From the NCBI GenBank assembly GCA_951406725.2, contig OX597815.1, forward strand, positions 213,528,001 through 213,592,000: a DNA stretch of 64,000 nucleotides. The letters run 5' to 3'. Below, in pieces: positions 910 through 46,831 of the stretch (position 1 is the first letter of the stretch; every line of letters starts with the position of its first letter). The position numbers and the translations under genes were made by a program. The stretch comes from Octopus vulgaris. Taxonomy: Eukaryota. The notes beneath the pieces were generated by a model. The model was not told the DNA's origin. It ran no database searches and saw nothing but the letters and a program-made list of their open reading frames with translations.

Positions 910-1034
910 CCCCTAACAGTTATTCTCTGCCAGCATTACTCGGGAGGACCATTCAAGGTGGAAAGTTACAGGCACCAGCTTATACGTTATTGGGACGAAA
1001 GACACTTGGGAGTTTCCATGAAGACTTAGCAAAG
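910..1034 (+). CDS. ODF3: Internal coding exon of an ODF3/SHIPPO1 (CIMAP1)-like outer dense fibre / ciliary microtubule-associated protein
   Basis: Pyrimidine tract plus CAG acceptor (ends 909) and AAG|GTAAGA donor (1035). Entry is phase 1 and exit phase 0. Translates to (A)PNSYSLPALLGRTIQGGKLQAPAYTLLGRKTLGSFHEDLAK, which matches the ODF3 segment P.Y.LP..LG....K..P.(F/Y)S..GR...G.F.(D/E)DL.K recalled from family knowledge. This exon is absent from the ORF track. Confidence 0.88.
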
Positions 1035-1164
1035 GTAAGATTGAAATCCATCTCTTTGTATCATTTAACATTTCTGTATTTACTCCACTCTTCACTCACG
1101 AATGTAATCAAATGACCTGTACAAAGGTATCTCATTGGAATGCTCATTAAAGAAAGGTAAACGG

Positions 1165-1480
1165 TAAAGACACCTTTGGGTCATGAATGACCATGAGATG
1201 GCACCTAGAATGTCCCCCCACCGAGGCACAAGTCCGAGGCAAAGTCCGAGCAAAGTTGTTTATGGAAGACCAGCAGTCACCCACGCATACCAGCCTCCCT
1301 TCTCCACGCCATCGATGTTACCCAAGGGAAAGGACAAAGGGGCCAATACAGCTTGGTATCAGTGACGCTGCAACTCATTTCTACAACTGAGTAAACTGGA
1401 GCAATATGAAATAGAGTGTCTTGCTCAAGAACACAACACAGCTCGGTCTGAGAATTGAACTCATTACCTCATGTTTGTAA
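1165..1480 (-). mobile_element. SINE, family B
   Basis: Similar along its length to 47455-47785 (gaagaccagcagtcaccc...gtgtcttgctcaagaacacaac...gaactc). Confidence 0.8.
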
Positions 1481-2194
1481 GCCCGCAAAATAAGCCTTTA
1501 GTTTAAGATTTGTTCCGTAACTGTTTTACACCATGACGACGATAATGATGTGAAGAAAAAAGCATGAAGTCGATAAAATTAAGAATGAAATGTGATTGTA
1601 GCTGTATCAGAATGTACATCACGGAATAAGAGAATCCACAGAGTATTCGATAAAGCGTGGGGCTTGGCCCGTGACCTTCACAGGTTTCTAAGACGGGTGA
1701 GATTGATGTTGGTCGACGTGCTGTTGGGATAGTTGAGCCAGCTGTATAAGTCGACGTCTGAAGAAAAGTATAACACGACACAAAGGGACTTTCTGAGGAT
1801 TGACCTTCTGGGGAGGAAGAATTAAATATAGTACTTAGTGGTGGTGGGTGGTGGGTGGTGGGATGAAATGAAGAAAGATGGTTTGTCGGAAAGGCTTGGT
1901 GATATTAAGTTTGCTACCTATGAGGGGCAGAGGATAGGATAATAAGGTGGAAGAGGCGAGTGAGGAGGAGGCATTGTTGTGTTAACTGGACGGCTTTCTT
2001 CTGGATTCAGTCAAAGACGTTTGTGTGTATGTAGAAGAAGCGTAGTGCCTGATGTAGGACCACTACTCTTATAATGAAGTTGTGATCTTACAATTGTAGA
2101 AAGTCAGCAGTTGTTCGGCATCTAGATATTTACTGGCCTTGAAGCGAGAATCTAATCTTTAAGATAAATCGTTTGCTATGTTATGAGTGAGAGG

Positions 2195-2492
2195 TCACCG
2201 GGTGATTGTGAAACGTACTGGTGCCACGTAGAATGTACCAGTGCCGGTACTATGTGTAAAGCACACATGCTTGTGCCACGTATAAAGCATGCGTGCCGTT
2301 GCTACGTAAAATGCACGCAATAATCTCTGTAAAGTGGTTGGCGTTAGATTAGAAAGGGCATCCGGCCGTAGAAACAGCGCCAATACAGACAATTGGAGTA
2401 TAGTGCATCTCTCTGGCTGGCCAGCTCCAGTCAAACATTCCAACCCATGCCAGCACGGAAAACACGTTAAACGTTAAATGATGATGATGATG
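2195..2492 (+). mobile_element. SINE, family C (internal gccacgta-type tandem units, ...cgttaaa(tga)n tail)
   Basis: Shares its internal repeats and 3' end with 53155-53500, 48800-49068 and 45535-45630 (-). Confidence 0.75.
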
Positions 2493-2721
2493 CAGTTGTT
2501 GCAATTTTGAAAGTTTCAAATGTATTATTGTTGAATGTTGTTTCCTTGACAAATACATTGGTTGTGTCTTTGAGTTGTTCAAAGAGACTAAAGGCGGATA
2601 TGTTTACAGAAGCAGAGCACATTTGAAATGAAGTATTGAAGTGTGGCGATGGTGCGTGGATGACCTTTGCAAACAGAAGATTAGAAAAGAGTGGTATCGT
2701 CGAATTAAGAGTTAGTAATAT

Positions 2722-2909
2722 TGATTTCAAATTTTGGGGAAGATGTAAGTGAATTGCGATGACTCCTATGCTCAACTGGTATTTACTTTATCGGCCCTGA
2801 AAGAATGAAAGGCAAAGTCGACCTTGGCGCAAGTTGAACCCAGAGCGTGAAGACGGACGAAATACTGCTAAGCATTTCACCCGACTCTGCTAACAGTTCA
2901 ACCGCCTTA
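2722..2909 (-). mobile_element. SINE, family D (Nin-domain-like core), left member of a head-to-head pair
   Basis: ctggtatttactttatcggccctgaaagaatgaaaggcaaagtcgacc core. TSD-like aagagttagtaatat (2707-2721) / aagagttattaatat (2910-2924). Confidence 0.8.
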
Positions 2910-2935
2910 AAGAGTTATTAATATCATGTTTGACT

Positions 2936-3148
2936 TCAGGCGGCAGAATCGTTTGCACGCCGGGAAAAAATGCTTGGCTGCATTTTGTCAGTCTTTACGT
3001 TCTGAGTTCAAATTCCACCGAAGTTGACTTTGACTTTCATCCTCTCGGGGCTGATAGAATAAGTATCAGTTGAGTACTGGGCTCCGTGTAATCGACTAGC
3101 CCCTCCCCACGAACTTGCAGGCTTTGTGTCAAAAATTGAAATTAGTAT
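2936..3148 (+). mobile_element. SINE, family D, right member of a head-to-head pair
   Basis: gttgactttgactttcatcctctcggggctgatagaataagta core. TSD-like catgtttgact (2925-2935) / tatgtgtgact (3149-3159). Confidence 0.8.
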
Positions 3149-3319
3149 TATGTGTGACTGCGAGTGGGTCGTTAATATACGAGACATAAACGTACTTTGG
3201 AGTCCGTGGGTTATGTACAGCCACATATGCAGAGCTGGTTACTCTGGCTTTACAGAAGATTACTGTCTAAAAGACGAGAGCCAGTTGAATCGGGAGATTT
3301 TCATGCTAGACAAGATCAT

Positions 3320-44767: not shown

Positions 44768-45129
44768 ATATATATATATATATATATATATATATATATA
44801 TATATATATATATATATATATATATATATATATATATATATATATATGAGAAAGAATATATATATGTATATTTCAAGTTGAAATACAGTTTTCAAATTGG
44901 TGGCTGAAATTTGCATGGAGACTTTTTTTCACAGATTTCAAGGAATATGTAATTTTTTTTACATGGCCCCTATAGAAAAGAAATTAAAAATAAATAATAA
45001 AAATAGTAATGGTGTGCTTGCACTTAGCTCCCTCCCCTCTCAAATTTCTTTGTCGTGCGAGTTACTTGGTCATCCTGCCGGTGCAGGGGCCACGTAAAAA
45101 GCATCCTGTCCGCACAAACCGTGGCTCGC

Positions 45130-45335
45130 AGGACCTCCTCCGTTAGGGTGGTTTCCCTGAGTCACCGTCTCACCCTTGTACGCCAATCCGTCGCAAGGTT
45201 ACCCGTTTGTAATTGAATGGACCGGAGTTACGTAACATGAAGAGTTTTGTTCAAGAATACAATGCACAGCAGCTCTGGGGATTGAAACCGCGATCTTGCG
45301 ATCGTGAGTGCAACAGTTTACCACTAGGCTATGCG
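45130..45335 (-). mobile_element. Diverged tRNA-derived SINE fragment
   Basis: gagttttgttcaagaatacaat...ggggattgaaaccgcgatc...accactaggc resembles the heads of families B and E. Confidence 0.55.
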
Positions 45336-45344
45336 TAATAGATG

Positions 45345-45535
45345 TTTCCTCCTTCGCCTCCTCCTCCTCCTCCTCCTCCTCTTCCTCTTCCTCCTCCCCT
45401 CATCATCATCATCATCATCATCATCATCGTCGTCGTCGTCGTCATCGTCGTCATCGTCGTCATCGTCGTCGTCATCCTTCCCCTCCTCCTCCGCGCCTCC
45501 TCTTCCTCCTCCTCCTCCTCCTCCTCCTCCTCCTT
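45345..45535. repeat. Compound trinucleotide microsatellite (CCT)(CAT)(CGT)(CCT), expanded at a family C SINE tail
   Basis: Direct reading. It abuts the minus-strand SINE C end ttaacgtcc...tccatgctggcatgg. Confidence 0.9.
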
Positions 45536-45718
45536 ATTTAACGTCCGTCTATCCATGCTGGCATGGTTTGGACGGTTTGATAGGAGCGGCCAGGTAGAAG
45601 ACTGCACAAGGGCTACTGTGTCTGTTTCAGTTATAAATAATTTTTTTTTACACATTTTTTTTTTATGAATCTAAATCAGAGCCGTCTTCTGGGTCTCGCA
45701 ATTCCGAAGGAATGGAGA

Positions 45719-45731
45719 TCACCATGGCAAC
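45719..45731. promoter_or_regulatory. Candidate RFX X-box
   Basis: TCACCATGGCAAC matches the RFX consensus GTYNCCATGGYAAC at all but the outermost base. Its exact reverse complement is at 46140-46152. Confidence 0.45.
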
Positions 45732-46139
45732 TGACAACAGCAAAATAGTTTTGAAATGTTCTATTCAAAATATAACATAATCATGTGATTGTGTTTATTT
45801 GAAATATTAACCCTTTGGCTGTGAAATTCAATTTGCTAGTTACTCCACCTACGATGTAATGATGTTAAATATCAAGAAAAAAAAGAGAAGAAAGAAAATA
45901 GAAATTGTATTTTCTGAAAGTCATACCACAACAAAAACTAGCTACAAACATGATATGATAACGAAAAGGTTGTTTGATTTCCTGGTTATTTGTCTCATTT
46001 TGGGATGGGAACGGTTTAAGGGGGTGGGGGTGGGTAGATGGGGTCGGATTGGCGTCAAAATTTACACGGGGTGGGGGAGGGTAAAATGGGATGGGCAATG
46101 GTGTGAGGAGGGCTGCAAGTCGCTCGGGCCTACCGTTTT

Positions 46140-46152
46140 GTTGCCATGGTGA
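46140..46152. promoter_or_regulatory. Candidate RFX X-box
   Basis: GTTGCCATGGTGA, just downstream of a G-rich tract (46019-46112). Confidence 0.45.
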
Positions 46153-46690
46153 GGAATATGGGAACAACTGAGTTTTAAAAAGATAAAGAGAAAGAAAAAA
46201 TAAAAAAATAAGAAAAAGAAAAAGAAGAGGGCAATAAAAAAAAACCAGGCAGAGAAGACGAACAAAAGAAGAAAGGGAAAAGGAGACAACATGCACAAAA
46301 CAACACCACCACCAAAACCCGAGCGAAGCAGGGGTCAAAATAGCCAGTTGATATATAAAAGTCATATTGCAGTTAAGTGTAATGAAATTTTGAAAGGATA
46401 AGTCTACTTTCCGAGGTAAAGGAGTAATCAAACCCATGCAAGGTGAGGTTACTACTTCTAGTTAATTATGTATTGTGAATCTGAATACCAATAAAAAGAC
46501 TTCTCAGTTACTGCTAATTCGATGACAACAGACACCGAGGGAGCAAAGAAAGCACGGCATATCTTTTTCACATTTATTATTAAATTTCCAAATCAAATTG
46601 ACAACAATTTCCAATCTTTGCAATAACCAGTGTCACATTTTATCTAATTTGTATTACTTAACTTTTCCTAATTTGTTTTCAACTATTCAG

Positions 46691-46831
46691 TCTCCTGGTC
46701 CTTGCGCGTACAAAACTTGTAAACCTGCAACGTACAGCAAAAAATCACCAGAATTTAGTATGCTATCGAAATGTTCGCCTCCAGAAGATATGCACCGAGC
46801 GCCAGGCCCCGGAGCCCATCACCCAGAAAAC
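46691..46831 (+). CDS. ODF3: Next internal coding exon of the ODF3-like gene (SHIPPO/PGP repeats)
   Basis: TTCAG acceptor (ends 46690), 141 nt, phase 0/0, donor AAC|GTAAAT. Translates to SPGPCAYKTCKPATYSKKSPEFSMLSKCSPPEDMHRAPGPGAHHPEN, the TPGP..Y...P.(Y/F)SM....PGPGAH.PE block that directly follows DL.K in ODF3 proteins. It joins the 910-1034 exon in frame. Confidence 0.82.

What the first reader, a model, noticed from the sequence alone, without database searches (positions are those of the whole stretch)
910..46831. Sperm-tail/ciliary gene (ODF3-like) with a 45.7-kb intron that is ~70% simple polypyrimidine satellite
Seen: two ODF3-like exons join in frame (...FHEDLAK|SPGPCAY...) across 1035-46690, and 9170-41780 is (TTTC/TTCC)n with pyrimidines on the sense strand. 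Established: Drosophila Y-linked axonemal dynein genes (kl-3, kl-5) have satellite-filled giant introns whose expression requires RNA-binding proteins, including the PTB orthologue Heph. Inference: this may be an independent case of satellite-driven intron gigantism in a flagellar gene of a mollusc. It would produce a >30-kb (UUUC)n pre-mRNA, a very large PTB/U2AF-type binding platform and a transcription delay.
Basis: partly seen in the sequence, partly recalled or inferred. Interest (0 to 1): 0.8.

Follow-up and report, generated by a model that had tools for sequence, protein, structure and literature searches.

The report
Giant pyrimidine microsatellite in octopus intron
An octopus cilia and sperm-tail gene (ODF3/CIMAP1) has a 32.6-kb TTTC/TTCC repeat inside a 45.7-kb intron; the same kind of giant repeat occurs at other places in this genome, so it is likely a tolerated runaway expansion rather than a fly-style giant-intron programme.

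Summary
Exons 910-1034 and 46691-46831 are consecutive exons of an octopus ODF3/CIMAP1 gene, joined across a GT-AG, phase-0 intron of 45,656 bp. Of that intron, 32.6 kb (71%) is an ungapped, 97.6% pyrimidine TTTC/TTCC array. The paralogue-join objection fails: a tandem paralogue downstream has its own four exons and an 11.2-kb, array-free version of this intron. Spliced contigs over the downstream exons were found in 3 of 4 runs guessed to be RNA.

The Drosophila Y-loop reading is not supported as membership. The intron is about 100-fold smaller than the kl-3 locus. Three other arrays of the same unit reach 25-29 kb elsewhere (two contain assembly gaps). Sixteen dynein heavy-chain genes showed no such array in 81 probes. 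Paralogous arrays with 92-97% identical flanks range from 2.7 to at least 14 kb, which points to fast intrinsic expansion.

Best reading: a locally amplified triplex-prone microsatellite, likely tolerated because its sense strand has almost no splice or poly(A) signals. Its true length, its state in other individuals and species, the tissue, and PTB binding are untested.

The parts
910..1034 (+). Coding exon 2 of the ODF3/CIMAP1 gene (exon 1 lies about 1.7-2.1 kb upstream of the window)
1035..46690 (+). Intron 2, 45,656 bp, GT-AG, phase 0; 13,054 bp is non-array sequence
9183..41784 (+). 32.6-kb degenerate TTTC/TTCC array, pyrimidines on the sense strand, with locus-private interruption motifs recurring every 0.4-4 kb
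41762..41858 (+). CTAC/CTAT tetranucleotide tail closing the array
46691..46831 (+). Coding exon 3, SHIPPO repeat (PF07004)
46832..49924 (+). Intron 3, 3,093 bp, skipped by contigs in 3 of 4 runs
49925..50084 (+). Last exon: coding to the stop at 50015-50017, then 3' UTR covered by contigs to 50079-50084

Best explanation
This is an intact, spliced octopus ODF3/CIMAP1 gene whose second intron holds a 32.6-kb TTTC/TTCC array, one of a recurrent class of such arrays in this genome; the array likely grew in place by its own instability and is likely tolerated rather than used as a regulator. Steps: (1) the intron was probably already about 11-13 kb (inferred from the 13-kb non-array part and the 11.2-kb paralogous intron). 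(2) A homopurine/homopyrimidine tetranucleotide seed expanded by slippage and by copying of 0.2-1-kb modules, probably helped by triplex (H-DNA) fork stalling and repair; local amplification is shown, the molecular route is inferred. (3) Splicing still works, likely because the sense strand offers almost no decoy signals (shown: 2 AG, no GTRA, no poly(A) hexamer in 32.6 kb) and because pyrimidine-rich RNA makes weak R-loops (established elsewhere, inferred here). (4) The UUUC-rich intron RNA would bind PTB-type proteins transiently and add minutes of transcription (predicted, untested).
For: Class, not singleton: searches with window stretches found same-unit arrays on many contigs; of 18 arrays measured, four are 25-33 kb (C2 32.6, C15 29.2, C17 28.6, C31 25.4; the C15 and C31 ones contain a 100-N gap). 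Fast length change: seven arrays share a 92-97.5% identical left flank yet run from 2.7 kb to at least 14 kb before a gap. Local growth: a 24-nt interruption motif has 11 of 11 genome matches inside this array; of 145 recurrent 21-mers, at most 37 occur in any of five other arrays. Not needed by the family: the tandem paralogue's same intron is 11,160 bp with no tract over 16 bp and a third paralogue is intronless. No axonemal pattern: longest tract 529 bp in 81 probes across 16 dynein heavy-chain genes. Splice-silent sense strand: AG 2, GTRA 0, A[A/T]TAAA 0, against 778, 112 and 19 in the other 13 kb of the intron and 7502, 16 and 83 on the opposite strand. H-motif stalling and weaker hybrids for pyrimidine RNA: PMC11667243 passages.
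Against: Neutrality is inferred, not shown. The longest array seen does sit in a ciliary gene in the pyrimidine-sense orientation; a rough chance figure for that is 4-56% depending on assumed numbers, so enrichment is not excluded. Host genes of the other giant arrays were not identified; the Pfam flank scan missed 3 of 3 true ODF3 ORFs at E<=0.001. Dynein probes covered 810 of 2,464 kb and not the N-terminal third. No orthologous intron from another species or individual was read. The low AG count is what the base composition predicts (3.2 expected), so it shows no selection.
Confidence: 0.63

Rival explanations
1. The gene and intron are real but the array length is wrong in the assembly (inflated, collapsed or two arrays joined), so the true intron size is unknown.
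For: Two of four giant arrays and the C13 array contain or end in gaps; all four largest are 25-33 kb, which could be a read-length ceiling; the O. sinensis model stops at this donor and runs into intron sequence, as if the region is hard to assemble.
Against: No N in the window; one private motif family runs from 10.1 to 40.3 kb; longest exact internal repeat 129 bp and longest near-duplicate about 340 bp; no long collinear match between the first and second parts (score 14.0 against 13.7 in shuffles); off-phase units do not peak in the middle.
Confidence: 0.14
2. The array is a functional, Y-loop-like element: a spermatocyte-expressed repeat RNA that binds PTB/U2AF-type proteins and times or gates ODF3 expression.
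For: ODF3/CIMAP1 is an axonemal protein, sperm-enriched in Ciona (PMC4427456); the sense strand has 5,394 UCUU words, a PTB motif from recall; it is the longest array found; fly kl genes need the PTB homologue Heph (PMC6508621).
Against: About 100-fold smaller than the kl-3 locus; inside the size class that did not attenuate in flies; absent from the paralogue and from 81 dynein probes; the host scaffold is the second largest and octopus males are ZZ, so there is no Y; contigs came from three studies at low depth, with no sign either way of testis restriction.
Confidence: 0.1
3. The array is a length-polymorphic, mildly harmful expansion that lowers transcription or sequesters RNA-binding proteins, like human intronic repeat expansions, buffered by three paralogues.
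For: Same motif class as the GAAA expansion in UGT2B7 that is linked to a lower isoform level; size close to the largest CCTG alleles in CNBP intron 1, about 11,000 units; pure pyrimidine runs up to 739 bp, 90 runs of 100 bp or more; three paralogues exist.
Against: Reading frame intact and over 90% identical to O. bimaculoides; the array is heavily interrupted (86% matches); the orientation is the one with weaker RNA-DNA hybrids.
Confidence: 0.11
4. The two exons belong to different tandem paralogues and are never spliced together.
For: A tandem paralogue does exist 33 kb past the last exon; the letters upstream of exon 3 in the contigs were not printed.
Against: Both genes have a full set of four exons in order; no other ODF3-like exon lies between the two; contigs carry 539 and 612 letters upstream of 46691, against 528 nt of upstream coding sequence, and overhang the acceptor by exactly the 2 nt that exon 2 shares with it.
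Confidence: 0.02

Closest known systems
Drosophila Y-loop fertility genes kl-3, kl-5, ks-1 (intron gigantism; PMC6508621, PMC11207136)
   Same: Axonemal gene with an intron made mostly of a simple repeat; about 98.5% of the coding span is intronic.
   Different: 45.7 kb, not megabases; ODF3/CIMAP1, not dynein; on the second-largest scaffold of a ZZ/Z0 animal, not a Y; the octopus dynein genes probed lack arrays; loops and Blanks/Heph dependence untested.
Human intronic H-motif expansions: GAA in FXN and FGF14, GAAA in UGT2B7 (PMC11667243)
   Same: Homopurine/homopyrimidine repeat in an intron; the same GAAA/TTTC unit as UGT2B7.
   Different: About 8,150 units against 63-160 in the UGT2B7 lines; mixed TTTC/TTCC with higher-order modules; present in an assembled wild-type gene with no known defect.
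CCTG expansion in CNBP intron 1, myotonic dystrophy type 2 (PMC8872148)
   Same: Tens of kb of a pyrimidine-rich tetranucleotide transcribed as intron RNA.
   Different: Different unit, interrupted rather than pure, and no evidence of toxicity here.
ODF3/CIMAP1 (SHIPPO-repeat, PF07004) family
   Same: Full-length member, 253-257 aa, collinear with solved sperm and ciliary doublet proteins.
   Different: Nothing unusual in the protein; only the intron is odd.

Membership tests
ODF3/CIMAP1 (SHIPPO-repeat) | SHIPPO/PG-rich repeats (PF07004) | tested here: met
   Exon 3 scores 21.9 bits over the cut-off of 20; PF07004 on all 120 listed homologues
ODF3/CIMAP1 (SHIPPO-repeat) | Full-length collinear homology to ODF3/CIMAP1 proteins | tested here: met
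Drosophila Y-loop gigantic-intron genes | Introns of hundreds of kb to megabases | tested here: not met
   45,656 bp against the definition; true length could differ if misassembled
Drosophila Y-loop gigantic-intron genes | Intron filled with simple satellite | tested here: met
   71% of the intron
Drosophila Y-loop gigantic-intron genes | Location on a male-limited, heterochromatic Y | tested here: inconclusive
   Second-largest scaffold, 2.1 Mb from its end; O. bimaculoides males are ZZ and Z is its chromosome 17. Autosomal location is inferred; no coverage test was possible
Drosophila Y-loop gigantic-intron genes | Pattern shared by axonemal dynein heavy-chain genes | tested here: not met
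   16 genes span 53-333 kb between DHC_N2 and Dynein_heavy; longest tract 529 bp in 81 probes; N-terminal third and 4 unpaired loci not probed
Drosophila Y-loop gigantic-intron genes | Expression only in spermatocytes | not testable with these tools
   Run labels are coded and contigs give no tissue or level; no ODF3 mention in an O. sinensis gonad paper or its one held supplement
Drosophila Y-loop gigantic-intron genes | Lampbrush-like loops and dependence on Blanks/Heph (PTB) | not testable with these tools
   Needs FISH, CLIP and knockdown
H-motif (triplex-prone) repeat expansions | Long homopurine/homopyrimidine mirror-type tract | tested here: met
   97.6% pyrimidine; 90 pure runs of 100 bp or more; triplex formation itself not tested
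H-motif (triplex-prone) repeat expansions | Length instability among alleles or cells | tested here: inconclusive
   Not testable at this locus; paralogous arrays elsewhere differ at least fivefold with 92-97.5% identical flanks

The most novel reading that the evidence does not exclude
Octopus has independently begun Y-loop-like intron gigantism without a Y: a class of 25-33-kb TTTC/TTCC arrays that persist preferentially in the pyrimidine-sense orientation inside germline or ciliary genes, where the UUUC-rich nascent RNA forms a PTB-bound nuclear body that gates expression of the sperm-tail gene. This would be an early, fully assembled stage of a process that cannot be assembled in flies.
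Probability: 0.1. Interest if true: 0.72.

Novelty: new member of a known kind. Interest (0 to 1): 0.32.

Why it matters
If the length is right, a normal gene splices across about 8,150 units of a triplex-prone repeat, some fifty times the GAAA alleles reported in kidney cancer lines and near the largest DM2 alleles. That makes it a natural test of why some huge intronic repeats are harmless: orientation, interruptions, lack of splice signals. The class of 25-33-kb TTTC/TTCC arrays did not appear in my octopus literature searches (listings only). As a gene-regulation discovery it is unproven and probably ordinary.

Tried and rejected
1. Paralogue join: rejected.
2. Haplotype-tandem or looped assembly inside the array: no support; the token alignment used stiff penalties and only detects long collinear runs.
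3. Recursive-splicing ratchet points in the array: neither of the 2 AG dinucleotides is followed by GT.
4. A shared mobile-element seed: this array's 600-bp flanks matched none of the other 17 arrays' flanks.
5. Finding host genes of other arrays by Pfam: 376 of 1,090 ORFs kept after repeat masking, then 116 and 76 more at a lower length limit, partly the same ORFs. Only transposon domains, one C2-domain exon 13 kb from the C4 array and one SDF exon 3 kb from the C8 array were found, apart from low-complexity and sub-threshold hits. The positive control failed (0 of 3 true ODF3 ORFs), so this is inconclusive. A 622-aa ORF beside the C15 array had no homologue and looks like a retroelement zinc-knuckle ORF by eye.
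6. A genome-wide count of long arrays was not obtained; the list comes from three searches that scored only 37 of 1,114, 13 of 4,734 and 37 of 1,357 candidates, so it is a lower bound.
7. No RNA holder on record was listed; run X15 had no cover of the exons. Neither is evidence.
8. Earlier findings of this scan: none returned.
9. Passages of a published O. vulgaris genome paper and the argonaut paper gave no intron-size baseline; bioRxiv supplements were not seen.
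Full report
What is there. The window lies at G000:C2:213,528,001-213,592,000 in a 2.80-Gb genome, 2.0 Mb from the end of a 215.6-Mb scaffold. Exon 910-1034 ends in a GT donor and exon 46691-46831 follows an AG acceptor; the frames join in phase 0 over 45,656 bp. The exons match solved ODF3/CIMAP1A chains at 139-178 and 179-224. A database protein named by its source as Octopus vulgaris is identical over exon 3 and carries the join, as does the O. 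bimaculoides RefSeq model in its cluster. 116 of 123 homologues align without a gap across the junction; the 7 misses are five with a nearby one-residue gap, the O. sinensis model and a fragment. The gene has four coding exons: one about 2 kb upstream of the window, the two named, and 49925-50017.

Paralogues. A tandem paralogue starts 33 kb past the last exon and has its own four exons. Its matching intron is 11,160 bp with no purine or pyrimidine tract over 16 bp. The non-array part of the focal intron is 13,054 bp, so the array explains nearly all of the excess. Two further paralogues lie on C15 (intronless) and C21. The paralogue-join objection is rejected.

Transcription. No run on record as RNA held the stretch. 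I laid four runs guessed to be RNA on 46300-50400. In 3 of 4 (three studies) one contig joined 46689-46831 directly to 49925 with 0-1 mismatches, at depth 5-10. Two of them carry 539 and 612 letters upstream of 46691, against 528 nt of upstream coding sequence, and all three overhang the acceptor by exactly the two letters shared with the end of exon 2. This fits the 1034-46691 junction, but the upstream letters were not printed, so the junction read itself was not seen. Tissue is unknown, and nothing shows that the sampled animals carry the long allele.

The array. TRF calls one array, 9183-41784, period 4, 8152 copies, 86% matches. It is 97.6% C+T on the sense strand, mainly TTTC and TTCC (5,046 and 1,723 units), with no N. 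It is not a pure run: interruption motifs recur every 0.4-4 kb. One 24-nt motif has 11 of 11 genome-wide matches inside this array. The longest exact internal repeat is 129 bp (80-93 in shuffles), near-duplicates reach about 340 bp, and there is no long collinear match between the two parts. This is what repeated local module copying plus slippage would leave, and it does not look like a looped or haplotype-doubled assembly. It does not prove the length.

Is it special to this gene? Three searches with window stretches found the same unit on many scaffolds (only 87 of 7,205 candidates were scored in all, so this is a lower bound). Of 18 arrays measured, four are 25-33 kb: this one, C15 (29.2 kb, one gap), C17 (28.6 kb, no gap) and C31 (25.4 kb, one gap). 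Giant arrays are still rare: the longest tract in 30 random 10-kb probes (30 of 40 drawn, from ten scaffolds) was 130 bp, although 9.3% of those probes is short-period repeat. Seven arrays on C31 and C7 share a 92-97.5% identical left flank yet measure 2.7, 3.0, 4.9, 5.3, 6.0, at least 6.0 and at least 14 kb, so this unit changes length several-fold while flanks diverge a few percent. Host genes of the other giants could not be identified; the Pfam flank scan failed its positive control.

Test of the axonemal idea. I located 16 dynein heavy-chain genes by pairing DHC_N2 and Dynein_heavy hits by strand and proximity; four loci with only one domain were left out. The spans are 53-333 kb, so none has a megabase intron in that part. 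A grid of 81 10-kb probes every 30 kb, which would touch any array over about 20 kb, found no purine or pyrimidine tract above 529 bp. The set probably includes the cytoplasmic dyneins, and the N-terminal thirds were not probed.

How it most likely works. The tract is a homopurine/homopyrimidine repeat of the class that stalls forks and expands (PMC11667243, passages; PMC12493176, passages); that route is inferred here. Tolerance likely follows from orientation. The sense strand has 2 AG, no GTRA and no poly(A) hexamer in 32.6 kb, against 778, 112 and 19 in the rest of the intron; the opposite strand has 7,502 AG, 83 hexamers and 914 GAAGAA words. The AG scarcity is compositional (3.2 expected), and neither AG is a ratchet site. 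RNA-DNA hybrids are weaker for pyrimidine RNA. The RNA would offer 5,394 UCUU words, a PTB motif from recall, and add 9-33 min at recalled rates of 1-3.5 kb/min, small beside the 80-90 h over which fly Y-loop genes are transcribed.

Comparison. The fly fertility genes have megabase satellite introns, are Y-linked, are expressed only in spermatogenesis and need Blanks and Heph (PMC6508621: Introduction and passages). Fly genes with 50-100-kb introns did not attenuate on splicing-factor loss (PMC11207136, passages). This locus shares the satellite fill but fails on size and on the dynein pattern; octopus males are ZZ (PMC10925132, passages). It therefore resembles the fly genes in anatomy but is not a member. 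By unit it is closest to the GAAA expansion in UGT2B7, by size to the largest CNBP alleles (PMC8872148, passages). ODF3 is sperm-enriched but also present in small amounts in gill cilia in Ciona (PMC4427456, passages). I found no description of these octopus arrays in four searches (listings only), and the library lacks most subscription papers.

Verdict. Observation confirmed; interpretation partly supported. A real and striking but probably passive expansion (0.63). Rivals: wrong assembled length (0.14), harmful polymorphic allele (0.11), functional Y-loop-like element (0.10), paralogue join (0.02). New member of a known kind; interest 0.32.

Noticed in passing
L005-L007; G000:C2:213,610,669-213,625,792: Tandem ODF3/CIMAP1 paralogue, about 47% identical in exon 1, same four-exon layout, no array.
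   Followed up: yes
L020 (C15:63,241,358-63,242,116) and L021 (C21:42,132,864-42,133,331): Two more ODF3-like genes; the C15 one is a single uninterrupted reading frame, possibly a retrocopy.
   Followed up: partly
window 1602-1793: The O. sinensis protein model P0008 stops matching at the donor of the giant intron and continues in sequence like this intronic stretch, suggesting the locus is broken or hard to annotate in that species too.
   Followed up: partly
L038-L047, L055-L058, L061 (C31 4.1-11.0 Mb, C7 1.75 Mb, C10 6.67 Mb): A duplicated multi-kb element with 92-97% identical flanks carries TTTC/TTCC arrays of 2.5 to at least 14 kb; six copies lie on the 12-Mb scaffold C31.
   Followed up: partly
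C2, C15:34.29 Mb, C17:65.89 Mb, C31:8.42 Mb: The four largest arrays all measure 25-33 kb and two contain gaps, which may reflect a read-length ceiling; longer arrays could be hidden.
   Followed up: no
L065:1-4919: A 67-bp minisatellite of at least 4.9 kb inside a dynein heavy-chain gene on C19.
   Followed up: no
L145:3192-5057: 622-aa open frame with a CCHC zinc knuckle, 4.4 kb from the C15 array; no Pfam or database homologue found; looks like a retroelement ORF1.
   Followed up: partly
window 61409-61933: Reverse-transcriptase fragment (weak RVT_1 match) downstream of the gene.
   Followed up: no
window 46940-47240: About 100-bp inverted repeat in intron 3, typical of a small dispersed element.
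   Followed up: no
window 9176-41780: Interruption density falls from 5' to 3' in two saw-teeth, resetting near 29 kb; unexplained, with no long duplication behind it.
   Followed up: partly
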